This document shows, piece by piece, positions 24,566 to 36,172 of a DNA stretch of 64,000 bases (within the stretch, counting starts at the first letter, position 1; every line of letters starts with the position of its first letter). The position numbers and the translations under genes were made by a program. The notes beneath the pieces are model-generated. The model made no database searches and was not told the origin of the DNA. It was given only the letters and a program-made list of their open reading frames with translations. This DNA is from Candidatus Nomurabacteria bacterium RIFCSPLOWO2_01_FULL_41_18 (GTDB lineage Bacteria; Patescibacteriota; Minisyncoccia; Phycocordibacterales; UBA9973). The DNA is taken from assembly GCA_001785865.1 (NCBI GenBank), contig MFUZ01000006.1, positions 111,307 through 175,306 of the forward strand, written 5' to 3'.

Positions 24566-25952
24566 AATTTACTTCATTTTTGCGTTCTTTTAAATCAATA
24601 GGATAAATGCCAGTAAAACATGATGTGGATAGGTGCTCTTTCGGCAGTCCTATCGATTTGATCATTCCCTCCATAGAAAGATAGTGGAGTGACGTCGCCC
24701 CCATATATTCGCGGGTTTCTTCTATAGTTTTGCTAGCCGCTATCAGTTCTTCTTGTTTCGGAGTGTCCATGCCGTAAAAATCTGGGAAGCGCACCGGTGG
24801 AGAAGAAATAATAAGGTGCACTTCTTTTGCACCAGACTTGAAAAGGTTTTCGACTAACCTTCTGCATGTATTCCCCCTCACTATAGAGTCATCAATGACA
24901 GCTATTTTTTTTCCTTTTAGAACCGAAGGAAGGGCTATGAGCTTGAGCGCCACACTATGCCGGCGAGATTTTTGGTCGGGCTCGATGAAGGTCCTGTGGA
25001 CGTAGCGGTTTTTTACTAAACCCATCTCGATAGGAATTCCAGACGCTTGGCTGAATCCAAATGCGACAGGGAGCGCGGTGTCAGGCACGGGCACTATGAA
25101 ATCGACTTTTCCTTTAAATTCTTTAGCTAAAACTTTTCCGAAATTTTTCCTGACATCGTATATCAGTTTGCCATTCAGCACTGAATCCGGACGAGCAAAA
25201 TAAACGTATTCAAATATGTCGTAATTCGGGATCGATTTGGTGAGCTGGATGCTTTTCATTCCGTTATTGTTTACCACTATCATCTCCCCTGGTCTTATAT
25301 CTCTTTCAAATATGGCGCCGATTGTAGTGAGAGCGCATGACTCTGAAGCGATGACATAGGCATTGTCCAGCCTGCCCAAAGCAAGCGGGCGCATCCCGTA
25401 TGCGTCGCGCACGGCCACCAAATTGTCCTTATCCATCATCACCAGAGAAAATGCTCCAGTAATTAGAGGAAATATTTTTTCTACAGATTTTGGAAGTGAG
25501 TTGCCCTCTTTGATATATACATTGATCGCATCACTGATGAGTTCTGAATCGATGCGATTTTTACGTAAAGCTTTTTTTGAGGACAAAAATTCTTCGAGAG
25601 ATTTGACGCTTGGCAAATTTCCATTGTGAGCAAGGGTAAAAGTGATCTCTTTTTTTGTCATATTCAATACTGGCTGGGCGTGATCGAGAGCTTTGCCACC
25701 GGAAGTCGAATATCTGTTGTGTCCGATGCCGATATGTCCTTTTAGGTCCGATATATCCTTTTCTTTATAGACCTGAGCCACTAGTCCTGCGCCTTTGTGG
25801 CTAAAAAGTTTTTTGCCATCACTTGTAGTAATTCCAGAAGCTTCTTGTCCTCTGTGTTGTAGTGCAAATAAACTAAAAAAAGCCAATTTTGAAACTGGCA
25901 AATTTTTACCGTATATTCCTACGATTCCGCATTTTTCTCTAAGCTCACTCAT
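24546..25952 (-). CDS. purF: Amidophosphoribosyltransferase.
   Basis: N-terminal Cys after Met (MSELREKCGIVGIYG), followed by Ntn amidotransferase and PRTase domains. Confidence 0.9.
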   Translation of the reverse strand: MSELREKCGIVGIYGKNLPVSKLAFFSLFALQHRGQEASGITTSDGKKLFSHKGAGLVAQVYKEKDISDLKGHIGIGHNRYSTSGGKALDHAQPVLNMTKKEITFTLAHNGNLPSVKSLEEFLSSKKALRKNRIDSELISDAINVYIKEGNSLPKSVEKIFPLITGAFSLVMMDKDNLVAVRDAYGMRPLALGRLDNAYVIASESCALTTIGAIFERDIRPGEMIVVNNNGMKSIQLTKSIPNYDIFEYVYFARPDSVLNGKLIYDVRKNFGKVLAKEFKGKVDFIVPVPDTALPVAFGFSQASGIPIEMGLVKNRYVHRTFIEPDQKSRRHSVALKLIALPSVLKGKKIAVIDDSIVRGNTCRRLVENLFKSGAKEVHLIISSPPVRFPDFYGMDTPKQEELIAASKTIEETREYMGATSLHYLSMEGMIKSIGLPKEHLSTSCFTGIYPIDLKERKNEVNYDVPKE

Positions 25953-26785
25953 AATGTTTTTCCGCCCGAGGCGGATCCGCCTTTGGCGGAGAAATATTTA
26001 ACTGCGTTTTTAAAAATTTTTAAACCAGCTCCCTCTTTTGATATTTTTTTATTTTTTTGCCCGTCCCGTAGGAAACTTGTTTTCGTATGGGACCACATCG
26101 GACTCTGGTGTGAAAACATTGCTCGCTCAGGATGTGGCATCATTCCAAGAACTCTCCCATTATAAGCTAAAACCCCCGCAATGTCATGTTCTGAACCATT
26201 TGGATTGTATTCTAAATTTTGGAAATTACAAATTTCTCCTTTTGTATAACGAAGAGCTATTTCTACCTCGTCGGCTTTTACATATTTCCCCTCCCCATGA
26301 GCAATAGGAAGAGAAATCTTTTTTATTCCAGAAAGCCAAGGAGATCGCCCCACAATTTCCAAGTCCACCCATCTGTCTATATATTGCCCATTTTTGTTAT
26401 ACGTAAGTGCTCCGGGTAAGACTCCCAAATTGGTCATAATTTGGAATCCATTACAAATGCCTATAGCGAGGGTGTCGCGCGATAAAAATTCTGTGAGTTC
26501 TTTTGCTAAATGATTTTTGAATTTATTAGCATAAGCTTTTCCGCTTCCTGTATCATCGCCATAAGAAAATCCTCCCGGAAAAACTAGAATTTGGTAATCC
26601 AAAAGCATTTTTGGCTTAGCTATCAAGTCATTGATATGTACAATATCTGCAGACCCACCCACAGACTCAAAAGCGAATTTAGTTTCTTCTTCGCAGTTCA
26701 ACCCATATCCTGACATTATTATAATCCGAGGCTTTGTAGCCGAAGGTATTGAGCTATGTGAATGTATTGGCTTTTTGTTTTTCAT
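25949..26785 (-). CDS. purQ: Phosphoribosylformylglycinamidine synthase, glutaminase subunit (PurQ-like).
   Basis: Class I GATase with the Cys nucleophile (AIGICNGFQ) and HPE triad (MMPHPER). Confidence 0.8.
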   Translation of the reverse strand: MKNKKPIHSHSSIPSATKPRIIIMSGYGLNCEEETKFAFESVGGSADIVHINDLIAKPKMLLDYQILVFPGGFSYGDDTGSGKAYANKFKNHLAKELTEFLSRDTLAIGICNGFQIMTNLGVLPGALTYNKNGQYIDRWVDLEIVGRSPWLSGIKKISLPIAHGEGKYVKADEVEIALRYTKGEICNFQNLEYNPNGSEHDIAGVLAYNGRVLGMMPHPERAMFSHQSPMWSHTKTSFLRDGQKNKKISKEGAGLKIFKNAVKYFSAKGGSASGGKTL

Positions 26786-26828: not shown

Positions 26829-28490
26829 CTAATACACTTCTTGCTGATAACATTTTTCACAATAAATTTGATAAATTTTTTGGTCTTCTGGTTTATATGA
26901 CGTTTGTATTTCTTTGTCACACTTAGCGCATTTTCCTTTCCAGAGGTTTCTAGGATTTCTTTTACTCATGCGCGATTCATGTCTGCAGTTAAAACACTCG
27001 GCTGGAAGTGCCAATTTATTTTTCTTATAAAAATTTACCTCTCTATTTATTAATTTAAAATTTTTCTCACAACTTTCACATGTCAGAACTTCTTTGATTA
27101 ATTTATCATTGTAATCTTTCGGATCTTTTGGTAAATCTTTATACTTAATAGTTCCCTGTCCTTTGGTAGCTGGTATGTCATCTTTCCATCTGAAACCTTG
27201 CGCGAGAGCTTCTTCTTTTGTGAGAGGCATGTATTCGTTGACTATTGCTTCATTGTAAGCAAAGGGACTCAGTTCTTTCGGAGGGAACAGTCCCCACTCT
27301 TTGTTCCTGACCATATGTTCAATTAATTTTTGTGTTAGTTTATTGTATTCTTCTTTAATGTACTGTTTATTAAATATACAATAAGCTTTCTTTCTAAGTC
27401 CGTAGCATCCAAATAAATTATTTGAACCATCACAATACTCTGAATAATAAATATCGTGGGAATCAACTATGTTTTGTGAACCAATCACTTTAGTGCCTTT
27501 ATCGATTGTTAAAGACTGGTAACTTTCTTCTAAGTCAGTTGTGAAAGATATGTCGTATGAATCTATGGCTTTTCTTAAAGTAAAACAAAATTTTGAATTT
27601 TCTCCGCTTTTAATATCAAATGAGTGATGTATGTTGTGGGCGTTATAAATATGATTTCCAGAAACATTGTTATTATGAGAGCCGAAAAAAGAGCGTTGAG
27701 GGATTGTTTTACGTAGTTTCTCTCTTTCTTTTAGAATAAAGTCTATGCTAGATTTTTCACTTAATGGGTATTTTAATAAAAACTGTTTGTATTCTTCTCT
27801 GGTAACCTGCTTATTAAAAATGTAATAAGATTTATTGACTTGGCCCACGCACCCAATGCAATTTAAACAATTTCTGCAATCAAAGAGTCCTATTGAGTCT
27901 ACACATGCTTCACTTTCTTGTGAATATAAAAGTTTACTAGACCCCAAACAGTCAATACATTCATAACAAGATTCGCATTTAAAGAGGTATAAGTTGTCTA
28001 GGCAATCTCTACAGTTCCAGATAATATGTCCATAATCACAATCTTCACTATCAACACACCCAAAAGCAAGGTAGCAATTTTTACTGCGAATAATTTGATT
28101 TGAGTATTCACTATTTTCATTCTGCATATTTCTGAGAGATATGTGGGGAATTGCATTTATTAATTTACTTATCTGGCTAAAAAAGGGCTTTTCCCAGTCA
28201 ATATCCATTCCGTATGACATTGGATCCCAATCATCACTCCACCATTCCGAAATGTCATACACAGGAAAAGGCGTATCAGTATCGTAGACTGAAATTATCA
28301 TTTTACCCGACATACTTGAAGGTCTTTTATATAGAGTTTTAAAATTTCTAAAAAGCGTACGCAACTGCTGTCTGCACTCTGGACACTTTTCTGGCGCTGG
28401 TACACCCATCTTTTCATAAAACCCAAAATCATCTGGCTCTATTATGAAATCTTTCTTACAGTTTTGACAATTTTTTGTTTCTTCTTGCAT
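26829..28490 (-). CDS. Cys-rich hypothetical protein (about 40 Cys in CxxC arrangements, with terminal zinc-ribbon pairs) inserted between purQ and purL.
   Basis: N-terminal CQNC...CPEC; a central cluster NCRDCLDNLYLFKCESCYECIDCLG...CRNCLNCIGCVG; C-terminal CESCEKN...CFNCRH and CAKCDKE...CEKCYQQ. Confidence 0.5.
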   Translation of the reverse strand: MQEETKNCQNCKKDFIIEPDDFGFYEKMGVPAPEKCPECRQQLRTLFRNFKTLYKRPSSMSGKMIISVYDTDTPFPVYDISEWWSDDWDPMSYGMDIDWEKPFFSQISKLINAIPHISLRNMQNENSEYSNQIIRSKNCYLAFGCVDSEDCDYGHIIWNCRDCLDNLYLFKCESCYECIDCLGSSKLLYSQESEACVDSIGLFDCRNCLNCIGCVGQVNKSYYIFNKQVTREEYKQFLLKYPLSEKSSIDFILKEREKLRKTIPQRSFFGSHNNNVSGNHIYNAHNIHHSFDIKSGENSKFCFTLRKAIDSYDISFTTDLEESYQSLTIDKGTKVIGSQNIVDSHDIYYSEYCDGSNNLFGCYGLRKKAYCIFNKQYIKEEYNKLTQKLIEHMVRNKEWGLFPPKELSPFAYNEAIVNEYMPLTKEEALAQGFRWKDDIPATKGQGTIKYKDLPKDPKDYNDKLIKEVLTCESCEKNFKLINREVNFYKKNKLALPAECFNCRHESRMSKRNPRNLWKGKCAKCDKEIQTSYKPEDQKIYQIYCEKCYQQEVY

Positions 28491-28536
28491 GTTTTTCTAT
28501 TTACCTATTCGTACGAATAAGACAATCAATATATTT

Positions 28537-31503
28537 TTACTTCATACTTTTTGAAAATTTATGATAAATTTCGTGCAATTTTTTGACGTTTGTATCAACT
28601 ACTTTTTTCTTGTCATCTATGATCACAATCTTTCCATTTCTTTCAACTTTTCCTATTTTAACACAAGTAATATTTTCCATTATTTTTTCAAACTGTTTTG
28701 TATTTTTCGTAGATACAGATACTAAAATTCTGCCCTGACTTTCGGAGAAAAGTTTAGCGTCTATAGATGTTGCATTTCCGGAAAGTTTGACAATATCTAC
28801 TTTGCATCCGACATTTCCTCCCACGCATGCTTTAGCAAGTGCAACCCCCAACCCTCCAGAAGTCACAGAAATAGAAGAAGCCACTAATTCTTTCTGAATT
28901 GCTTTTTCTAAGGCAAGATAAGTTTTAAGATTTTTTCCTAAATTAACTTTTGGCACAGTATTACCAATACTATTAGTTTTTTTTGCAATCATTTTGTAGT
29001 ATTCGCTTGCCCCGAGTTCATCGTTGGTTTCACCTAGTAAATAAATTGTGTCCCCTGCTTTTTTAAATTCAGGTGAAACAGCTTTGTATAAATCAGGCAT
29101 GACGCCAATTGCCGAAATAAGAAGCGTTGGAGGAATAGAAATAGCTACTGAATTGCCTTTTTCATCATAGCCTTTGAAGTCATTAAACATACTGTCTTTA
29201 CCTGATATAAATGGGGTACCGTAGCCTACTGCACCCGCATAGCAGGCCCTGATGGCTTCTACGAGTTGATACAGTCGTTTCGGGTCATTTGATGAGCACC
29301 AACAAGTATTGTCTAAAATAGCGAGGTGAGAAAGCGTTCCACCGGAAGCGACAATATTTCTAATTGCAGTGTCAAGCGCACAAAGTGCCATATGGTAACA
29401 ACTCAAGTCTCCATAGGAAGGATAAACTCCAGTCGACAAGATAACTCCCTTATTAGAATTCAAAACTGGACGAAAAATTTGAGTATCGGTATTTATTCTA
29501 CCAGAACCCGAGAGGGGTTTTAATACAGAAGACGCCTGAACTTCATGGTCATATTGTTCAGAGATAAAAGAAAATCCAGAAAGATTAATGTTATCTAATA
29601 AATTTTCTAAATCTTTTGTGCGAAATGTGCCTTTTGGTAATATAGGTTCAGGATATTTATTTTCTATTTTTTCTGTAGTTAGATTATGTTTCGGTAGCCC
29701 ATTATGTAGAAATTCCATATCTAAATCCACAATCTTTTTTCCTTGAAAGTTAACAATACATTTTCCGGAATTTGTGAATTCACCTATCACCGTGGCTTCA
29801 ACTCCCCGGGTTTCCATAAGCTTGTGAAATGTTTTCCATTTATTTTTCGGCACAGAGAGGGTCATTCTTTCTTGTGATTCAGAAATCCAAATTTCCCAAG
29901 GGCGCAAACCTGGATATTTTAACGGCACTTTTTCTAAAAATACTTTTAACCCACTAGATTCTTTTGCCATTTCTGCCACTGAGGAAGAAAGACCTCCTGC
30001 GCCATTGTCAGTAATACTGTTGTACAAATTCATATCACGCGCTTCTTTTATTATCGCATCGCTTAATTTTTTCTGAGTTATGGGGTCACCGATTTGTACT
30101 GCAGTAGCGGGAGAACTTGAGTTTAAAGAAACAGATGAAAAAGTTGCACCATGTATTCCATCTAGTCCTACTCTTCCTCCAGCCATGACAATATAGTCCC
30201 CCGCTTGTGCTCTTTTTTCATGTGAAAGTTTTTTATTCCCAAAAGAGGCGGGCAGGCTTCTAGGAATTAACCCGACAGTTCCAGCAAAAACTAATGGCTT
30301 ACCACGATACCGTTCATCAAATTTTATAAATCCTGAAAGAGTAGGAATTCCAGAGCAATTTCCTCCGACGTTTATGCCTTTTATAACCCCATCCATGATT
30401 CTTTTTGGAGAAAGCATTTTTTGTTTTTTTTCTTTGTCTCGAAATAGCGGTCTTTGATCTTCTGGATATCCAAAACAAAATCCATAAGTATTAGCCACAG
30501 GCTTAGCTCCCAGTCCAAAGCCAATAGCATCACGATTGACACCCACAATACCTGTAACAGCTCCGCCAAAGGGGTCTAATGCTGAAGGACTGTTGTGCGT
30601 TTCCACTTTGTGGGTTATCAAATAATCTTTATCAAAAATTATTCCTCCGGCATTGTCACTAAAAACAGAAACACAAAAATCATCCCCTTTTCTCTGTTTC
30701 TCTTTGCGTATTAAATTTGTTGCGCCTTTTATATAAGTTTTATACAGACCATCCTTGATCTCGTCTATTGGATTCGCAAAAATAGTATGTTTACAATGTT
30801 CAGACCATGTTTGAGCCAATGTTTCTAGCTCAATATCCGTCGGATTTCTTTTTAACTTCAAAAAATGTTCTTTGATAGCTTGCATTGAAGCCAAATCAAG
30901 CGCCAATGGACCTCTTCGCTTATTCTCTTTGCCATTTTCATCACGAATTCCTTCTTTACCTATTTTAATAAGTTCTTCATCTGAAACATTTAGGGAAATA
31001 TTAATAACAGTTTTTCTTTTTTCTAAAACAACTTTTGGAACTTTATTTGGTAAATTTATTTTTTGAGATTTAATTTCTACAATAGTAGCTTTTTCAATTA
31101 AAGGGTTGTGCATGGAAATTGCAGTTTCTTTTACTTCTTCGATTGTCCCGGATACAAGAAAAATCTTTGAAGTGTATACTTCAAAGTCAGAACTCTTTTT
31201 AAACTTCAACAGATCTTTGGCTATTTCTTTGACTGTGTGAGCCACATTGTCTGTAACTCCGGGTAAAAAGCTTATTTCGATCAAATAATTAAACTTCCCC
31301 CGAAAACCGTCTTCGGGGAATTTATTTATAGAGAAATTTTCCAGAATAGGATTTGTAAGCGCTTCAGTAAGAGTTTGAAGCTCTTTTTGAGATAATTTAG
31401 AGTCAATAAGATAGGAATTGACTTGCTTGCTTTCTTTTTTCGGCCCGCCTGCAACGCTATGCGTAGCATTGCGGGCAGGCATCACATATATCCGCGAAAT
31501 CAT
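28537..31503 (-). CDS. purL: Phosphoribosylformylglycinamidine synthase II (PurL) with an N-terminal PurS-like domain. Apparent PurS::PurL fusion.
   Basis: Two PurM-like repeats of PurL occupy the C-terminal about 750 aa. The N-terminal about 140 aa resemble PurS (…LIEISFLPGVTDNVAHTVKE…). Confidence 0.85.
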   Translation of the reverse strand: MISRIYVMPARNATHSVAGGPKKESKQVNSYLIDSKLSQKELQTLTEALTNPILENFSINKFPEDGFRGKFNYLIEISFLPGVTDNVAHTVKEIAKDLLKFKKSSDFEVYTSKIFLVSGTIEEVKETAISMHNPLIEKATIVEIKSQKINLPNKVPKVVLEKRKTVINISLNVSDEELIKIGKEGIRDENGKENKRRGPLALDLASMQAIKEHFLKLKRNPTDIELETLAQTWSEHCKHTIFANPIDEIKDGLYKTYIKGATNLIRKEKQRKGDDFCVSVFSDNAGGIIFDKDYLITHKVETHNSPSALDPFGGAVTGIVGVNRDAIGFGLGAKPVANTYGFCFGYPEDQRPLFRDKEKKQKMLSPKRIMDGVIKGINVGGNCSGIPTLSGFIKFDERYRGKPLVFAGTVGLIPRSLPASFGNKKLSHEKRAQAGDYIVMAGGRVGLDGIHGATFSSVSLNSSSPATAVQIGDPITQKKLSDAIIKEARDMNLYNSITDNGAGGLSSSVAEMAKESSGLKVFLEKVPLKYPGLRPWEIWISESQERMTLSVPKNKWKTFHKLMETRGVEATVIGEFTNSGKCIVNFQGKKIVDLDMEFLHNGLPKHNLTTEKIENKYPEPILPKGTFRTKDLENLLDNINLSGFSFISEQYDHEVQASSVLKPLSGSGRINTDTQIFRPVLNSNKGVILSTGVYPSYGDLSCYHMALCALDTAIRNIVASGGTLSHLAILDNTCWCSSNDPKRLYQLVEAIRACYAGAVGYGTPFISGKDSMFNDFKGYDEKGNSVAISIPPTLLISAIGVMPDLYKAVSPEFKKAGDTIYLLGETNDELGASEYYKMIAKKTNSIGNTVPKVNLGKNLKTYLALEKAIQKELVASSISVTSGGLGVALAKACVGGNVGCKVDIVKLSGNATSIDAKLFSESQGRILVSVSTKNTKQFEKIMENITCVKIGKVERNGKIVIIDDKKKVVDTNVKKLHEIYHKFSKSMK

Positions 31504-31512
31504 GCCTACATC

Positions 31513-32736
31513 TTATATTATTTTCATTTCTTTGCCAACTTCTTGCATTATTTTAAATGCTCGATCAATCTGTTCTTTTGTATGAGCAGCAGAAATTTGA
31601 AAACGCAACCTAGCTGTTCCTTCTGGTACGACTGGGAACCAAAGACCCACTACGAATAATCCTTTTTCTAAAAGTTTTTTGCTCATTTCTTGTGTTTTTG
31701 CAGCATCACCCAACATTACGGGTATAATCGGATGATCTCCTTCTAAAACATTAAAGCCTAATTTTTTCACTCCCGTTCTAAAGTATTCTGAATTCTCTTT
31801 TACTTTTGTCAGCAGTTCAGGTTTTTCTTTTAATAAATCAAGTGCTTTAATTGAGGTAATTACCACAGATGGAGGAACAGAATTTGAAAAAAGATAAGTT
31901 CGAGATTTTTGGCGAAGCAATTCTACAATTTCTTTTTTACCTGCAACATATCCGCCGACTGCTCCACCAAGCGCTTTACCGAAAGTTCCAGAAAGAATGT
32001 CAATCTTTCCGTGAAGGCCAAAGTGTTCCGGTGTGCCAGCTCCAGTTTTTCCTAGCACTCCCACAGCATGCGCATCGTCCACGAAGAGCAGTGTTTCGTA
32101 TTTTATTGAAAGCTCTAAAATTTTAGGCAATTGCGCCAGGTATCCCTCCATAGAAAAAACTCCGTCAGTGACAATTGTTTTAAAACGATAGCCCTTGCCT
32201 TTATCTTCTTCCAACATTTTTTCGAGTGTAGCAACATCTCCATGCGGATATATTCTTTTCACCACATTTTCTTTCTTGCAAAGCTTAAAAGCATCAATGA
32301 TACTAGCGTGATTTAGTTCATCGCTGTAAATTGCGTCTATATGCTCTGTGCTACCTAGTGCTTCATTCGCTATCGTCGCAAAAAATCCTAAGTTCGACAT
32401 AAAGTTTGTAGAGTACAGAATGACATCTTCGGTACTCAAGAATTCAGCCAACTTTTTCTCTAAAATTTTATGTATTGTTTCTGTACCTGAGATAAATCTT
32501 ACAGAAGAAAGCCCGAAGCCATGAGTGTCGATTGCTTCTCTGGCGGACTTCACTATTTCTGGATGGTTGGAAAGACCTAAATAGTTGTTGGATGCGAACA
32601 TCAGCACCTTTTTCCCGCCGATAGTTACTTCTGGTCCTTGTGCGCCTTCTAATTCTCTTTCAATCTTAAATTTTCCTGTTTTCTTGAGAGCATCCAGTTC
32701 ATTCTCTACATCTTGAATTAATTTTTTTGAGTACAT
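31513..32736 (-). CDS. kbl: 2-amino-3-ketobutyrate CoA ligase (glycine C-acetyltransferase), a class II PLP aminotransferase. BioF is the alternative assignment.
   Basis: AONS/KBL family length and motifs, with a PLP Lys region. The gene is adjacent to a Tdh-like Zn-ADH gene. Confidence 0.75.
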   Translation of the reverse strand: MYSKKLIQDVENELDALKKTGKFKIERELEGAQGPEVTIGGKKVLMFASNNYLGLSNHPEIVKSAREAIDTHGFGLSSVRFISGTETIHKILEKKLAEFLSTEDVILYSTNFMSNLGFFATIANEALGSTEHIDAIYSDELNHASIIDAFKLCKKENVVKRIYPHGDVATLEKMLEEDKGKGYRFKTIVTDGVFSMEGYLAQLPKILELSIKYETLLFVDDAHAVGVLGKTGAGTPEHFGLHGKIDILSGTFGKALGGAVGGYVAGKKEIVELLRQKSRTYLFSNSVPPSVVITSIKALDLLKEKPELLTKVKENSEYFRTGVKKLGFNVLEGDHPIIPVMLGDAAKTQEMSKKLLEKGLFVVGLWFPVVPEGTARLRFQISAAHTKEQIDRAFKIMQEVGKEMKII

Positions 32737-32744
32737 ATTTATAT

Positions 32745-33086
32745 TTATTTATTAGCAAGATCCATTCTAAATTCTTTACCATGATCTTTGAAACCAAGCT
32801 TGGAATACAATGCATGGACTTTTGGGCTCTCGTAACGACTAGTGCAAATTATTTTGTAGCAATTTAGATTTTTGGCTTTCTCGATCACTTCATTTACTAA
32901 TTTTGTACCTATGCCTTTGCTCCGATTTTCTTCGGATACAAAAACGTCTTCTAAAAACCCAAAAGGTGCTTTGTGTAAATCATTAAACATAATATAAAGA
33001 TAAGCTCGGCCCAAAATTTCGCCATCCACTTCCGCTGTGACTTTTATAGCATAACTTTTATTTTCTTTGCTTAATTTTATCTCCAT
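32745..33086 (-). CDS. GNAT-family N-acetyltransferase.
   Basis: Acetyl-CoA binding motif 'RSKGIGTKLV'. Confidence 0.7.
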   Translation of the reverse strand: MEIKLSKENKSYAIKVTAEVDGEILGRAYLYIMFNDLHKAPFGFLEDVFVSEENRSKGIGTKLVNEVIEKAKNLNCYKIICTSRYESPKVHALYSKLGFKDHGKEFRMDLANK

Positions 33087-33091
33087 ATGTT

Positions 33092-34306
33092 CTAACCATT
33101 GATTTTAAAAATAATTTTTGGATTTTGATCCATTGCTTTCTCAAAACTCTCTGGTGTGAAATCTTTAAAAGATAAAATTGTATCTTTTCCTTCTTTAAGG
33201 ACAACATTCCATATTGCGTCTTGAATACCATTACTTTTGTCGTTTAAAATTCTTTGAGCTATCTGCCACGTACGGAAAATTTCACGTCCAATGATGTTGT
33301 GAATAGTTAAACCTCGAATAATCACGCGAGAAAATTTCGGAATAGTCAGATCACCATCTTTAATGCCAAAAAATATTACATGTCCTCCCCTTCTAGTGCT
33401 ATCAATAGCATTATTTACAGAGGAAAAAGCTCCAGCCATCTCCATTGATACGTCCACGCCCTTACCATAGGTAAGTTTCATTATTTGCTCTACTACGACA
33501 GCATCAGCTTCCCAGGATTCTTTTTTATTTGTTTTTTTGATTAATATTGTTTCGTGGGCACCCAACTCTTTTGCCATTTTTAGATTTTCAGGAAGCACAT
33601 CCACTGCTATAATTTTTGCTGCTCCAAAATTCCGCGCCAGTAATATAGAAAATAATCCAATCGGTCCACAACCGAATATTGCGACCCGTTGCCCTCTGAA
33701 ATCCGTAACGGTCGTCGCATGAACTGCATTACCAAAAGGATCGTAAATAGCAGCAATTTCAGGACGAAGGCGTGTAGTATCTACTGCCCATAAATTTTTA
33801 GCAGGAACTTTCACATATTCAGCAAAAACTCCATCAATTGAAATACCAAGGATTGACTCGTTCAGACATACATGGCTTTCACCAATCCTGCATTGGTAAC
33901 AACTTCCACAAGTAACATGAGAATCTCCAGAAACAAGGTTGCCTACTTCTATTTTCGCTTTATTGTGTGGATCGGTATCGTAGTAAAGACTTTTTACCAT
34001 ACTTCCAGCTTCTACGATTTCTCCCACAAATTCATGTCCAGTAATCCTCATACTTTTCTTCTCTTTTTGGAGTGAACTGTGAATCAAGTCTTTAAAAGCA
34101 TTCCGATACCAGAGACCCCTGTCTGAACCGCATACACCCGCATAGAGTATTTTTAAAATTACACAAGTTGCATCGCTATGATATTTTTTTTCATCTAAAA
34201 CAGGCATTGGCACATCACGCATTACAAATCCGCGTTTTCCCTCCCATCCATCTTTTTTGATATCCAGTGTCAGAGCTTTAATTAGTTTTTTTTGTTCTTC
34301 TTTCAT
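33092..34306 (-). CDS. tdh: L-threonine 3-dehydrogenase-like zinc-dependent alcohol dehydrogenase.
   Basis: Zn-binding GHE and CGSD motifs plus a Rossmann fold (GCGPIG). The gene pairs with kbl. Confidence 0.75.
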   Translation of the reverse strand: MKEEQKKLIKALTLDIKKDGWEGKRGFVMRDVPMPVLDEKKYHSDATCVILKILYAGVCGSDRGLWYRNAFKDLIHSSLQKEKKSMRITGHEFVGEIVEAGSMVKSLYYDTDPHNKAKIEVGNLVSGDSHVTCGSCYQCRIGESHVCLNESILGISIDGVFAEYVKVPAKNLWAVDTTRLRPEIAAIYDPFGNAVHATTVTDFRGQRVAIFGCGPIGLFSILLARNFGAAKIIAVDVLPENLKMAKELGAHETILIKKTNKKESWEADAVVVEQIMKLTYGKGVDVSMEMAGAFSSVNNAIDSTRRGGHVIFFGIKDGDLTIPKFSRVIIRGLTIHNIIGREIFRTWQIAQRILNDKSNGIQDAIWNVVLKEGKDTILSFKDFTPESFEKAMDQNPKIIFKING

Positions 34307-34318
34307 ATATTTTATATC

Positions 34319-36172
34319 TTACTCCACGGTCACACTTTTTGCCAGATTGCGTGGTTTGTCGACATCGTTGCCCTTTTCTACTGCTATATAATATGCTAGA
34401 AGTTGCATTGGCACAAAAGCAAGAATTGGAGTCAACATCTCTAGAGTTTTAGGAATATAGATCACATCATCGGCGACATTTTTCAGTTCTTTGTTCCCTT
34501 CGGTGGTTAAGACGATGACTTTGCCTCCTCGCGCCTTTATCTCCTGTATATGAGATTTATTTTTCTCATACATGCTGTCGGTTGGCGCGATGACTAGCGA
34601 TGGAAAATCTTTGTCGATCAGCGAAATTGGTCCGTGCTTGAGCTCGGCCGCATTGCAGCCTTCGGCATGAATATACGAGCATTCTTTCAGCTTGAGTGCA
34701 CCCTCCATAGCGGCTCCGGCGTTATATTTACGCCCGAGAAAAAAGAAATTTTTATATTTTTTATATTTTTTTGCAAGTTTCTTGATCAAATTCGCATGTT
34801 TTAAAATACTCTCGACATATTCCGGGAGTTTTTGTATTTCCTTCAATATTTTTTGGCCGTCGGATTTAGATAAATCGCGCATACGACCCAGATAGATGGC
34901 AAGCATGACGAACAAGAGGGCTTGAGAAGTCGTGGCTTTGGTCGAGGCTACCGCTGTTTCCGGTCCGACATGATTGTAGATGCCCGCATCGACGACTCTC
35001 GCGATGCTCGAGCCGATCACGTTCACTATTCCTAGGGTAAGCAGTTTTTCTTCTTTCGCCTTCTTGATGGCGTTTAGAGTGTCAGCTGTCTCGCCGGATT
35101 GGGAAATGGCAATCAGTCCGGCATGCCTTCCATTGGCGACACTGCGATAAGTGAATTCCGAACCATACTCGACTTTTACTGGAATGCCCGCCAATTCTTC
35201 AAAAGCGTATTCGCCAATAAGCCCGCTAAAACGGGCAGTACCCATGCCTATGATCGTCAGGTGTTCAAGATTTTTAAATTCTTTGTTGAATTTTTCCACT
35301 CCGCCAAATTTTACGTTACCTTTGTCCATGACAATCCGGCCCCTCATAGTATTACGCAAAGATTCCGGCTGATCGAAAATTTCCTTTAACATAAAATGGG
35401 GAAACCCACCCTTTTCCAGTTCCTCAATTTTAGTTTTCAAGGTGTGGACATAAAGATTCTTTCTAACTTTATTTTTTATTGTCTTAAGGGAAAGTTTGCC
35501 ATCTTTGATTACCGCCATTTCTCCGTCTTCCAGGTAAACTACTTTTTTCGTATGTTCGACAATGGGCGTGGCGTCTGAAGCGATAAAAAATTCTCCGTTT
35601 CCGATGCCGATCACAGCCGGACTACCCACTTTGGCGACCACCATAGTCCCCGGCTCATCTTTCGATAGTACCAAGATCGCATAAGCTCCGGTCACCTCCG
35701 CTAGTGCGAGACGGACTGCTTCATCTATAGGTATCTGTCTTCCGGCGCTCCCATTTTTTTTGATATCCTCGATCAAATTCGCCAAGACCTCGGTATCTGT
35801 GTCGCTTTTGAATTTATATCCCTTGCCAATCAATACTTTTTTGATCGAAAGATAGTTCTCAATGATACCATTGTGGACTATGACTATATCTCCTCCGTTC
35901 GATAGATGCGGATGCGCATTCGCATCCGAAGGCACTCCATGAGTCGCCCAGCGAGTGTGAGCGATACCCACTCCGCCAGAGAGCTCATTGTGGCTCTTTG
36001 CAAATTTTGAAAGTTCCGCCACTCTCCCTTTCTTTTTGTAGACAGAAAAAGTCCCGCCTTCTAGGAGGGCGATCCCGGCCGAATCATAGCCGCGGTATTC
36101 TAGGCGTTCTAGTCCCTTGATCAGAACAGGCCAAGCCGTATTTTTTCCGATGTATCCGACAATGCCGCACAT
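34319..36172 (-). CDS. glmS: Glutamine--fructose-6-phosphate aminotransferase (isomerising).
   Basis: MCGIVGYIG N-terminus, two SIS domains and a C-terminal ...TVE. Confidence 0.9.
   Translation of the reverse strand: MCGIVGYIGKNTAWPVLIKGLERLEYRGYDSAGIALLEGGTFSVYKKKGRVAELSKFAKSHNELSGGVGIAHTRWATHGVPSDANAHPHLSNGGDIVIVHNGIIENYLSIKKVLIGKGYKFKSDTDTEVLANLIEDIKKNGSAGRQIPIDEAVRLALAEVTGAYAILVLSKDEPGTMVVAKVGSPAVIGIGNGEFFIASDATPIVEHTKKVVYLEDGEMAVIKDGKLSLKTIKNKVRKNLYVHTLKTKIEELEKGGFPHFMLKEIFDQPESLRNTMRGRIVMDKGNVKFGGVEKFNKEFKNLEHLTIIGMGTARFSGLIGEYAFEELAGIPVKVEYGSEFTYRSVANGRHAGLIAISQSGETADTLNAIKKAKEEKLLTLGIVNVIGSSIARVVDAGIYNHVGPETAVASTKATTSQALLFVMLAIYLGRMRDLSKSDGQKILKEIQKLPEYVESILKHANLIKKLAKKYKKYKNFFFLGRKYNAGAAMEGALKLKECSYIHAEGCNAAELKHGPISLIDKDFPSLVIAPTDSMYEKNKSHIQEIKARGGKVIVLTTEGNKELKNVADDVIYIPKTLEMLTPILAFVPMQLLAYYIAVEKGNDVDKPRNLAKSVTVE

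What the first reader, a model, noticed from the sequence alone, without database searches (positions are those of the whole stretch)
26829..28490. Cys-rich 553-aa protein (about 40 Cys, multiple zinc-ribbon pairs) inserted into the conserved purQ-purL junction
purS, purQ and purL are normally contiguous. Here purS is fused to purL, and a large protein full of CxxC and CxxCxxC clusters with N- and C-terminal zinc ribbons sits between purQ and purSL in the same operon orientation. It has no recognisable enzymatic motif. It may be a metal-binding regulatory or chaperone component coupled to FGAM synthase, or a selfish insertion.
Basis: seen in the sequence. Interest (0 to 1): 0.6.

Follow-up and report, generated by a model that had tools for sequence, protein, structure and literature searches.

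The report
Zinc-finger beta-solenoid gene in pur operon
The cysteine-rich gene between purL and purQ is real, but it is one member of a very large, uncharacterised family of zinc-finger-capped beta-solenoid proteins that candidate-phyla (Patescibacteria) bacteria usually carry as tandem arrays elsewhere, and nothing supports the idea that it is a part of the purine enzyme.

Summary
The ORF at 26829-28490 (-) is real, 553 aa, and lies co-directionally between purL and purQ. It has 30 Cys, not about 40. That is 5.4% against 0.9% in the other long ORFs (z=7).

Only the ends are zinc fingers: one treble-clef finger at the N terminus and two at the C terminus. The central CxxC runs are the inward-facing Cys/Ser ladder of a narrow 12-residue-per-turn beta-solenoid (AlphaFold pLDDT 92.5, pTM 0.90). 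No solved or viral structure matches the whole protein.

The family is very large: 4273 hits and 3702 clusters at 50% identity, all about 550-600 aa. Every named source is Patescibacteria. Genomes carry co-directional tandem arrays of up to 10 anciently diverged paralogs beside housekeeping genes.

The window gene belongs to subfamily "A". Of 65 A members, 18 sit in a pur operon. The basal members sit in arrays with no pur genes nearby.

In seven relatives found through PurQ, the purL-purQ junction holds other subfamilies (R, z, W, F+W, one P-like), a truncated A, or nothing. The gene is therefore the survivor of an old array embedded in the operon. It is neither an FGAM-synthase subunit nor a recent mobile insertion.

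Function is unknown. My best guess is a cytoplasmic zinc-stabilised binding or scaffold protein.

The parts
26829..28490 (-). Complete ORF of 553 aa, with the stop codon at 26829-26831. It is a subfamily-A member of a Patescibacteria zinc-finger / beta-solenoid paralog family.
   Evidence: ORF list and translation. 4273 homologs. 3702 clusters at 50% identity. Subfamily assignment.
28350..28490 (-). N-terminal treble-clef zinc finger, aa 1-47 (C8, C11, C36, C39), followed by an Arg-rich helix.
   Evidence: Pfam zf_Tbcl E=1.6e-4, below cut-off. These Cys are 88-99% conserved family-wide. The model shows a hairpin plus helices at pLDDT >93.
28281..28349 (-). Basic segment, aa 48-70 (FRNFKTLYKRPS...). 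It is a degenerate second finger that has lost its Cys, and it is the most conserved stretch of subfamily A.
   Evidence: It aligns with the C-terminal second finger region: aa 3-69 against aa 470-536, 30% identity, E=5e-10. Conservation within A is 0.87 and pI is 10.2.
28122..28280 (-). Conserved acidic linker, aa 71-123 (WW..D.WD...YG.D.D...PFF.Q motif).
   Evidence: Near-invariant W83, W88, D98, F103, Q106, L110 and P115. pI 4.1.
27810..28121 (-). Beta-solenoid 1, aa 124-227. Coils are 12 residues long, and every third residue is an inward-facing Cys, Ser or other small residue. It holds 14 of the 30 Cys.
   Evidence: DSSP pattern repeats every 12 residues. All Cys sit on one phase of the 3-residue period. 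Ladder Cys are replaced by Ser/Ala/Val/Leu in paralogs. pLDDT falls to 59-70 for aa 150-180.
27696..27809 (-). Helical cap after solenoid 1, aa 228-265.
   Evidence: Helices at 231-240 and 246-262. The solenoid-end-plus-cap unit is duplicated: aa 193-240 against aa 338-388, 39% identity, E=6e-8.
27366..27695 (-). Beta-solenoid 2, aa 266-375, with longer strands and an inward ladder of Ile, Ala, Ser, Gly, Cys and Leu.
   Evidence: Model strands 274-372. Phase analysis. C353, C362 and C371 are 80-99% conserved.
27300..27365 (-). Helical cap after solenoid 2, aa 376-397.
   Evidence: Helix 379-395. Duplicate of cap 1.
27087..27299 (-). Conserved irregular segment, aa 398-468 (GEWG.FFP...SPF.YNE....EY.PL.K..A...G..W.D).
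   Evidence: Near-invariant G400, P404, S408, Y412, N413, P422, G432 and W435. pLDDT 94-96.
26955..27086 (-). C-terminal zinc finger 1, aa 469-512 (C471, C474, C499, C502). It is homologous to the N-terminal finger.
   Evidence: Internal homology. These Cys are invariant within subfamily A and 60-98% conserved family-wide.
26832..26954 (-). C-terminal zinc finger 2, aa 513-553 (C521, C524, C544, C547), of CxxC-x19-CxxC type.
   Evidence: Pfam zf_Tbcl_2 E=4.7e-5. TIGR04272 E=2.2e-4. Weak profile match to the second finger of a LIM domain, E=0.003. Cys are 95-99% conserved.
28537..31503 (-). Upstream neighbour: PurL (FGAM synthase II), 988 aa, with an unassigned N-terminal extension of about 190 aa.
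   Evidence: Pfam FGAR-AT_linker, AIRS and AIRS_C. TIGR01736 E=2.7e-154. The N-terminus has no PurS hit.
25949..26785 (-). Downstream neighbour: PurQ (FGAM synthase glutaminase subunit).
   Evidence: Pfam GATase_5 E=8.8e-68. TIGR01737 E=1.5e-49.
28491..28536 (-). The 46-bp purL-ORF spacer. It contains the 14-bp perfect palindrome TATTCGTACGAATA.
   Evidence: Sequence. Inverted repeat I12. No function was tested.

Best explanation
What it is:
- The gene encodes a cytoplasmic, compact, rod-like protein.
- Two stacked narrow beta-solenoids form the body. The first has a Cys/Ser core ladder.
- Each solenoid is capped by helices.
- Homologous treble-clef Cys4 zinc-finger modules sit at both ends.

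Where it belongs:
- It is the subfamily-A member of a very large multigene family found only in Patescibacteria sources here. The family has no described function.
- Genomes normally carry members as co-directional tandem arrays of anciently diverged paralogs, each under strong purifying selection.

How it came to be here:
- In one Paceibacteria/Nomurabacteria-like clade, a short array of these genes (order roughly R/F/l - A - W/z) became lodged between purL and purQ.
- That array has since been differentially lost.
- The window retains only A, which is now probably co-transcribed with the pur genes.
- It is not a component of FGAM synthase.

Mechanism (inferred, not shown):
- Zinc stabilises the basic finger modules at the two ends.
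- These modules contact a nucleic acid or a partner protein.
- The rigid, acidic solenoid presents a surface that is conserved within each subfamily and differs between subfamilies.
- The paralogs would then be binding or scaffold proteins with different specificities.
For: Shown: family size and range.
- There are 4273 homologs and 3702 clusters at 50% identity, nearly all 550-600 aa.
- Every named source is Patescibacteria: Nomurabacteria, Paceibacterota, Liptonbacteria, Harrisonbacteria, Staskawiczbacteria and Peregrinibacteriota.

Shown: arrays.
- Arrays reach 10 co-directional paralogs in 17.7 kb (L001).
- I clustered the 204 non-redundant members recovered from the fetched loci.
- Identity is about 59% within subfamilies and 37% between them.
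- Only 8 same-subfamily duplicates occur within a locus.

Shown: structure and composition.
- The AlphaFold model has pLDDT 92.5 and pTM 0.90, with the domain layout described above.
- The zinc-finger module and the solenoid-plus-cap unit are each internally duplicated.
- Ladder Cys sit on one phase and are exchangeable with Ser, Ala, Val or Leu.
- There is no hydrophobic segment: the maximum Kyte-Doolittle score over 19 residues is 0.95, and a finger starts at residue 8.
- The finger modules and caps are basic (pI 8.5-10.2). The solenoids and linkers are acidic (pI 4.1-6.6).

Shown: constraint.
- Subfamily A is about as conserved as the flanking enzymes. In L017 the identities are A 76%, PurL 74%, PurQ 73%.

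Shown: context.
- Of 65 subfamily-A loci, 18 are in pur operons. These fall in two derived clades, and the basal A members lie in arrays.
- In PurQ-anchored genomes the junction holds R, z, W, F+W, a P-like member, a truncated A, or nothing.
- Genes flanking arrays elsewhere are housekeeping genes: murE-like, M17 peptidase, grpE, pgk, rpoB/C and dnaG.
- GC3 is 0.289, within the range of the neighbours.

External support:
Against: - The biochemical role is purely inferred. No partner, ligand or nucleic acid has been identified.
- No metal content has been measured.
- I did not have the model coordinates, so I could not examine surfaces.
- Some family members have lost finger Cys (P0191, and the L091 member). 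Zinc binding at every finger is therefore not universal.
- The C205/C208/C211/C214 quartet is 82-95% conserved. This leaves open a metal site, or chemistry, inside the solenoid.
- Of 22 pur operons examined, 20 keep at least one full-length family member at the junction. A weak functional tie to the operon therefore cannot be excluded on this small and partly biased sample.
Confidence: 0.6

Rival explanations
1. It is an accessory subunit of FGAM synthase in these bacteria: a metal-binding regulator, assembly factor or chaperone. It would be kept at the purL-purQ junction for stoichiometric co-expression.
For: - The position is conserved in at least 15 genomes with orthologs 59-76% identical.
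- In several relatives the purL stop overlaps the start of the family gene by 4 bp: L005-7, L088, L089, L092 and L094.
- Of 22 pur operons seen, 20 have some full-length family member at the junction.
Against: - 47 of 65 subfamily-A genes have no pur gene within about 6 kb. All basal branches lie in arrays beside unrelated housekeeping genes.
- The gene occupying the junction belongs to a different subfamily, only about 37% identical, in L088, L089, L091, L092 and L094.
- L096 has purL directly followed by purQ with no remnant. L090 keeps only a 213-aa fragment that lacks both solenoids.
- From established knowledge, the PurS/PurL/PurQ complex needs no such subunit.
Confidence: 0.07
2. It is a selfish or mobile insertion (transposon cargo, prophage remnant or homing element) that recently landed in the pur operon.
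For: - One database source calls an ortholog a 'putative phage protein'.
- The gene's GC (0.33) is lower than that of purF or purQ.
- The junction occupant varies between genomes.
Against: - GC3 (0.289) equals that of purD, purL, tdh and kbl. The low GC comes from first codon positions, that is, from amino-acid composition.
- There are no flanking direct or inverted repeats beyond chance AT-rich matches.
- No transposase or integrase gene lies beside it; the adjacent genes are purL and purQ.
- There is no hit in 50,697 phage records or in IMG/VR, and none in PADLOC.
- Orthologs at the same site have diverged to 59-76% identity, tracking the flanking enzymes.
Confidence: 0.04
3. It is an enzyme or redox protein. 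The conserved CxxCxxCxxC coil (C205-C214) and other ladder Cys would hold an Fe-S cluster or metal centre, or the solenoid would carry an active site as in left-handed beta-helix acyltransferases.
For: - C205, C208, C211 and C214 are 82-95% conserved family-wide, more than a pure packing role requires.
Against: - There are no Fer4, radical-SAM or Hexapep Pfam hits at E<=1.
- Most ladder Cys are freely replaced by Ser, Ala, Val or Leu, with little covariation.
- The family-wide invariant residues (N374, E484, R503) sit in cap and finger elements that recur in the internal duplicates, not in an obvious pocket.
Confidence: 0.1
4. It is a secreted or surface beta-solenoid (adhesin-like or ice-binding-like) whose ladder Cys form disulfides, as in the beetle antifreeze protein.
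For: - Some homologs carry faint PF02420 (insect AFP) hits.
Against: - There is no signal peptide or hydrophobic segment. A zinc finger begins at residue 8.
- Three Cys4 fingers are typical of intracellular proteins (established knowledge).
- The sequence contains no TCT ice-binding motif.
- Ladder Cys do not covary in i/i+6 pairs as disulfide partners would.
Confidence: 0.06

Closest known systems
Tenebrio molitor antifreeze protein (Pfam PF02420 AFP; PDB 1EZG)
   Same: - It is a very narrow beta-helix with 12-residue coils.
- A small residue (Cys, Ser or Ala) points inward every third position.
- Some family members give faint PF02420 hits.
   Different: - The window protein has no TCT ice-binding face and no signal peptide.
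- Its solenoid is only about 100 of 553 residues and is flanked by zinc fingers.
- Its ladder Cys are interchangeable with Ser/Ala/Val and do not covary as disulfide pairs.
zf_Tbcl / zf_Tbcl_2 / TIGR04272 'CxxC-x17-CxxC' zinc-binding domains (for example Methanosarcina mazei small proteins A00184 and A01980)
   Same: - It has the same CxxC...CxxC treble-clef-type motif.
- The window protein hits these models weakly, and many orthologs carry precomputed PF13451 or PF23477 hits.
- Zinc binding by this domain type was shown by ICP-MS (PMC12704099).
   Different: - Those are small stand-alone proteins of unknown role.
- Here three fingers, plus one degenerate finger, flank a 400-residue solenoid body.
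- The scores in the window protein are below the curated cut-offs.
LIM-domain proteins (CRP1, CRP2, MLP)
   Same: - They have tandem Cys-rich zinc fingers used as a protein-binding module.
- A family profile matches the second LIM finger at E=0.003.
- One paralog (P0121) has a weak Pfam LIM hit.
   Different: The match covers only about 35 residues and is marginal. The spacing between the two fingers is 18 residues rather than 2. LIM proteins have no solenoid.
Ice-binding and curli-type flat beta-solenoids (Lolium IBP 3ULT; CsgA 8C50)
   Different: They are extracellular, lack zinc fingers, share 5-11% identity, and cover about 100 residues only.
PurS / N-terminal domain of large PurL (FGAM synthase complex)
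   Same: The only similarity is genomic neighbourhood: the gene lies between purL and purQ.
   Different: There is no sequence or structural similarity. The gene is dispensable at the junction in relatives (L096, L090).

Membership tests
FGAM synthase complex (PurS/PurL/PurQ) | Homology to PurS, PurL or PurQ. | tested here: not met
   No Pfam or NCBIfam pur-family hit at E<=1.
FGAM synthase complex (PurS/PurL/PurQ) | Obligate co-occurrence with purL and purQ across relatives. | tested here: not met
   47 of 65 orthologs have no pur gene nearby. The junction is empty in L096 and holds a truncated copy in L090.
FGAM synthase complex (PurS/PurL/PurQ) | Physical association with PurL/PurQ. | not testable with these tools
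   This needs pull-down assays or multimer prediction.
zf_Tbcl / TIGR04272 treble-clef zinc finger (domain level) | Profile score above the curated cut-off. | tested here: not met
   PF13451 scores 22.0 bits against a cut-off of 24. PF23477 scores 23.4 against 27. TIGR04272 scores 20.9 against 36. Orthologs do carry precomputed PF13451 or PF23477 hits.
zf_Tbcl / TIGR04272 treble-clef zinc finger (domain level) | Two CxxC pairs, conserved, folded as a knuckle plus helix. | tested here: met
   The quartets C8/11/36/39, C471/474/499/502 and C521/524/544/547 are conserved. They are modelled as hairpin plus helix at pLDDT >89.
zf_Tbcl / TIGR04272 treble-clef zinc finger (domain level) | Bound zinc. 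| not testable with these tools
   Zinc was shown only for M. mazei proteins carrying the related domain (PMC12704099).
Insect antifreeze protein repeat (PF02420) | 12-residue coils with inward-facing Cys, Ser or Ala every third residue. | tested here: met
   DSSP period of 12. Single-phase Cys/Ser ladder.
Insect antifreeze protein repeat (PF02420) | TCT ice-binding motif on each coil, and a secreted protein. | tested here: not met
   No TCT in the sequence and no signal peptide. No PF02420 hit for the window protein.
Left-handed beta-helix (hexapeptide) acyltransferases / gamma-carbonic anhydrases | Hexapeptide repeat profile (PF00132) and 18-residue coils. | tested here: not met
4Fe-4S ferredoxin-like proteins | CxxCxxCxxxCP motif or a Fer4 profile hit. 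| tested here: not met
   The motifs are CxxCxxCxxC with no following Pro. No Fer4 hit.
Mobile genetic element / prophage cargo | Flanking repeats, a recombinase, atypical codon composition, or relatives in phages. | tested here: not met
   Repeats are chance-level only. The adjacent genes are purL and purQ, not a transposase or integrase. GC3 matches the neighbours. No phage or IMG/VR hit.
Known anti-phage defence proteins (PADLOC) | Profile match to any PADLOC model. | tested here: not met
   0 families at E<=1.

The most novel reading that the evidence does not exclude
The family is a Patescibacteria-specific intracellular system. It would consist of dozens of ancient paralogs of a previously undescribed architecture: zinc-finger modules at both ends of a Cys-lined beta-helix.

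The paralogs would act together, as a heteromeric scaffold or cytoskeletal element, or as a panel of sequence- or structure-specific nucleic-acid or ribosome adaptors.

The conserved four-Cys coils inside the helix would hold metal ions in the solenoid core, a kind of metal site I know of no precedent for.
Probability: 0.15. Interest if true: 0.8.

Novelty: categorically new. Interest (0 to 1): 0.58.

Why it matters
Patescibacteria (the candidate phyla radiation) make up a large share of bacterial diversity. Their genomes are tiny, and much of their conserved gene content is unexplained.

- This family has thousands of sequence clusters.
- It can occupy at least 17 kb in one array. The L001 array lies on a 621-kb contig.
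- It evolves about as slowly as core enzymes.
- It has no Pfam, NCBIfam, literature or structural counterpart for its body.

Knowing what it binds could reveal a lineage-specific cellular function.

Conserved operon embedding in one clade does not show functional coupling. Here it reflects differential decay of an old gene array.

Tried and rejected
**Database and structure searches on the ORF**
- Pfam, NCBIfam, PHROGs and PADLOC gave only sub-threshold zinc-finger hits.
- PDB sequence searches found nothing useful with the single protein. With a 136-sequence profile they found only marginal hits to the second LIM finger.
- The AFDB library was not available.
- tblastn against phage records and an IMG/VR scan found no relatives.
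- A domain-fusion lead failed: P0191 (808 aa) has a 260-aa C-terminal extension with no Pfam hit.

**Literature**
- Searches for the family, its domains, or Nomurabacteria purine synthesis found nothing on this protein.
- The only useful item was the zinc-binding evidence for the CxxC-x17-CxxC domain.

**The purS-purL fusion claim**
- There is no Pfam PurS or FGAR-AT_N hit on the PurL N-terminus.
- A PDB profile search found nothing.
- BLAST with a B. subtilis PurS sequence recalled from memory found nothing. I treat this as a lead only.

**Technical dead ends**
- The first genome scan, with the diverse family alignment, failed for lack of a conserved stretch. It was repeated with orthologs only.
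- Single-linkage clustering merged subfamilies. I replaced it with average linkage.
Full report
**1. The observation**

An ATG-initiated ORF of 553 codons occupies exactly 26829-28490 on the minus strand. Upstream in the direction of transcription is a 988-aa PurL. It carries FGAR-AT_linker, AIRS and AIRS_C domains and hits TIGR01736 at E=2.7e-154. Downstream is PurQ (GATase_5, E=8.8e-68), followed by purF, purN and purD.

The spacers are 46 and 43 bp. Neither holds a terminator-like site on the coding strand.

The protein has 30 Cys, not about 40. That is 5.4%, against 0.88 ± 0.64% in the 43 other long ORFs of the window (z = 7.1). The composition is therefore not chance.

GC3 is 0.289, the same as purD, purL, kbl and tdh. 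The low overall GC comes from first codon positions, which reflects a composition rich in Lys, Asn, Ile and Tyr.

**2. Anatomy**

Profile libraries see only sub-threshold zinc-finger matches. These are zf_Tbcl at aa 4-42, and zf_Tbcl_2 / TIGR04272 at aa 514-551.

An AlphaFold2 model built on 136 family sequences is confident: mean pLDDT 92.5 and pTM 0.90. Only aa 150-180 fall to 59-70. The layout it gives is:
- a treble-clef finger (aa 1-47);
- a basic, degenerate second finger (aa 48-70);
- an acidic conserved linker (aa 71-123);
- beta-solenoid 1 (aa 124-227);
- helical cap 1 (aa 228-265);
- beta-solenoid 2 (aa 266-375);
- helical cap 2 (aa 376-397);
- a conserved irregular segment (aa 398-468);
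- two C-terminal fingers (aa 469-512 and 513-553).

The N-terminal module is homologous to the C-terminal one (30% identity, E=5e-10). The end of solenoid 1 plus its cap is homologous to the end of solenoid 2 plus its cap (39% identity, E=6e-8).

In solenoid 1 the strands recur every 12 residues. Every Cys lies on one phase of a 3-residue period. That phase reads NSSISCACSCGICCNLCCCCSLSSCSLCCCCQKY. In solenoid 2 the corresponding phase reads IAISIGSCLASITLSSIGVSISISCSLCLKCN.

Across 316 family sequences these ladder positions swap Cys for Ser, Ala, Val, Leu or Gly, with little pairwise covariation. The central CxxC and CxxCxxCxxC runs are therefore the small-residue core ladder of a very narrow beta-helix. 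This is the same construction as the beetle antifreeze protein. They are not zinc ribbons.

The exception is the C205/C208/C211/C214 coil, which is 82-95% conserved. It could be a real metal site.

There is no hydrophobic segment, and a finger starts at residue 8, so the protein is most likely cytoplasmic. The finger modules and caps are basic (pI 8.5-10.2). The solenoids and linkers are acidic (pI 4.1-6.6).

**3. Structural and sequence neighbours**

- curli CsgA;
- LpxA and GlmU;
- phi29 gp12;
- UspA1 and YadA heads;
- the budworm and Tenebrio antifreeze proteins.

Foldseek against PDB and BFVD gives nothing at E ≤ 0.001. A family profile against PDB sequences finds only the second finger of LIM domains, at E = 0.003. 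PADLOC, the phage records and IMG/VR give no relatives. The body of the protein has no described counterpart.

**4. The family**

The word-indexed search returns 4273 homologs. The exhaustive search of 50%-identity representatives returns 3702, of which 1476 are below 1e-30. Nearly all are 550-600 aa.

Every source name is Patescibacteria: Nomurabacteria, Paceibacterota, Minisyncoccia, Staskawiczbacteria, Liptonbacteria, Harrisonbacteria and Peregrinibacteriota. The products are called 'hypothetical protein', 'zinc-ribbon domain containing protein' or, once, 'putative phage protein'.

In L001, which lies on a 621-kb contig, ten co-directional paralogs fill 17.7 kb. They are 30-58% identical to the query and are interrupted only by an M17 peptidase gene.

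I extracted 204 non-redundant members from the fetched loci, including the 79 species-level loci of the genome scan, and clustered them. Depending on the cut-off this gives about 47-69 subfamilies. Identity is about 59% within subfamilies and about 37% between them. Only 8 same-subfamily duplicates occur within a locus.

The arrays are thus sets of ancient, differentiated paralogs and not recent expansions. Genes flanking arrays are ordinary housekeeping genes: murE-like, grpE, pgk, rpoB/C, dnaG and a pif1-like helicase.

**5. The link to purL and purQ**

The window gene belongs to the largest cluster, subfamily A, which has 65 members.

- Fifteen members, including the window, lie strictly between purL and purQ.
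- Two more are compatible with that position but are cut by contig ends.
- One (L030) is followed directly by purF.
- The other 47 have no pur gene within about 6 kb.

In a neighbour-joining tree the pur-linked members fall in two derived clades. These clades are interspersed with array-linked members. All basal branches lie in arrays.

At some pur junctions A is accompanied by other subfamilies: R-A (L009), F-A-z (L010), l-A (L016) and A-W (L029).

To avoid the bias of searching with A, I also started from PurQ homologs at 71-77% identity and read seven independent operons. The junction then held:
- R alone (L088);
- a P-like member (L089);
- a 213-aa in-frame remnant of A that lacks both solenoids (L090);
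- z alone (L091);
- F+W (L092);
- W alone (L094);
- nothing, only a 116-bp spacer with no remnant (L096).

The simplest reading is that an array of order roughly R/F/l - A - W/z was lodged in the junction in an ancestor of this clade and has decayed differently in each lineage.

In several relatives the purL stop overlaps the start of the family gene by 4 bp. Subfamily A has diverged at about the same rate as the flanking enzymes. In L017 the identities are A 76%, PurL 74% and PurQ 73%. The gene is therefore an old, constrained, co-transcribed resident.

Interchangeable occupants, one empty junction and one truncated copy argue against a role as an FGAM-synthase subunit. The absence of repeats, of a recombinase gene beside it, and of any compositional anomaly argues against a recent mobile insertion.

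**6. How it probably works**

*Shown:*
- a compact solenoid rod with conserved Cys4 fingers at both ends;
- a cytoplasmic sequence character;
- strong purifying selection;
- conservation specific to each subfamily, 0.61-0.87 by region within A against 0.37-0.63 across the other paralogs.

*Supported by analogy:* the finger type binds zinc. This was shown by ICP-MS for M. mazei CxxC-x17-CxxC proteins (PMC12704099).

*Inferred:* the basic finger modules contact a nucleic acid or a partner protein. The rigid acidic solenoid provides a paralog-specific binding surface. The family would then be a panel of binding or scaffold proteins. I put about 0.3 on that mechanistic part and about 0.85 on the classification and the evolutionary account.

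The rivals are scored separately in this report. They are an FGAM accessory subunit, a mobile element, an enzyme or Fe-S protein, and a secreted disulfide-bonded solenoid.

**7. The purS claim**

PurL has a conserved N-terminal extension of about 190 aa. Two NCBIfam large-PurL models begin aligning at aa 143 and 153. The first 140 or so residues hit no Pfam PurS or FGAR-AT_N model and no PDB sequence.

No stand-alone purS was found with a PurS sequence recalled from memory, which is a lead only. The fusion is plausible by position but remains unverified.

**8. Verdict**

The proposed FGAM coupling is not supported.

What is there is a member of a very large, uncharacterised family found only in Patescibacteria sources, with an architecture that no library I could search describes. 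This makes it moderately to highly interesting as an open problem. The function remains unknown.

Noticed in passing
window 28499-28526 (core about 28503-28522): A perfect 14-bp palindrome, TATTCGTACGAATA, lies in the 46-bp spacer between purL and the Cys-rich ORF. It could be an operator or a small hairpin inside the operon.
   Followed up: no
window 25953-25998: A GC-rich double inverted repeat lies at the purQ 3' end, just upstream of the purQ-purF overlap. It encodes an odd Gly/Ser-rich PurQ tail (KGGSASGGKTL).
   Followed up: no
window 11005-31503: A near-complete cluster for de novo purine synthesis and the AMP/GMP branches sits in a Patescibacteria-like window. The genes are purB, an MFS transporter, purC, purM, purE, guaA, guaB, purA, a TetR-family gene, purD, purN, purF, purQ and purL. 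No purH was seen in the cluster. From general knowledge, most members of this radiation lack purine synthesis.
   Followed up: partly
window 30934-31503 (PurL aa 1-190): PurL carries an N-terminal extension that is conserved in 19 relatives. It has no Pfam or PDB sequence match. It occupies the position of the PurS-like N-domain of large PurL.
   Followed up: partly
L090 5313-5954: A 213-aa in-frame deletion derivative of subfamily A lies at the purL-purQ junction. It has 21 N-terminal residues fused to cap 2, the C-terminal linker and both C-terminal fingers. It is either a decaying gene or a minimal functional form.
   Followed up: partly
L001 1-17686: Ten family paralogs in a row are interrupted only by an M17 leucyl-aminopeptidase gene. 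The array runs off both ends of the fetched stretch. An M17 peptidase recurs next to arrays in six loci.
   Followed up: partly
window 31513-36172: Genes for kbl (2-amino-3-ketobutyrate CoA ligase-like aminotransferase), a GNAT acetyltransferase, a threonine-dehydrogenase-like zinc ADH and glmS lie co-directionally upstream of purL. This may form one long transcription unit.
   Followed up: no
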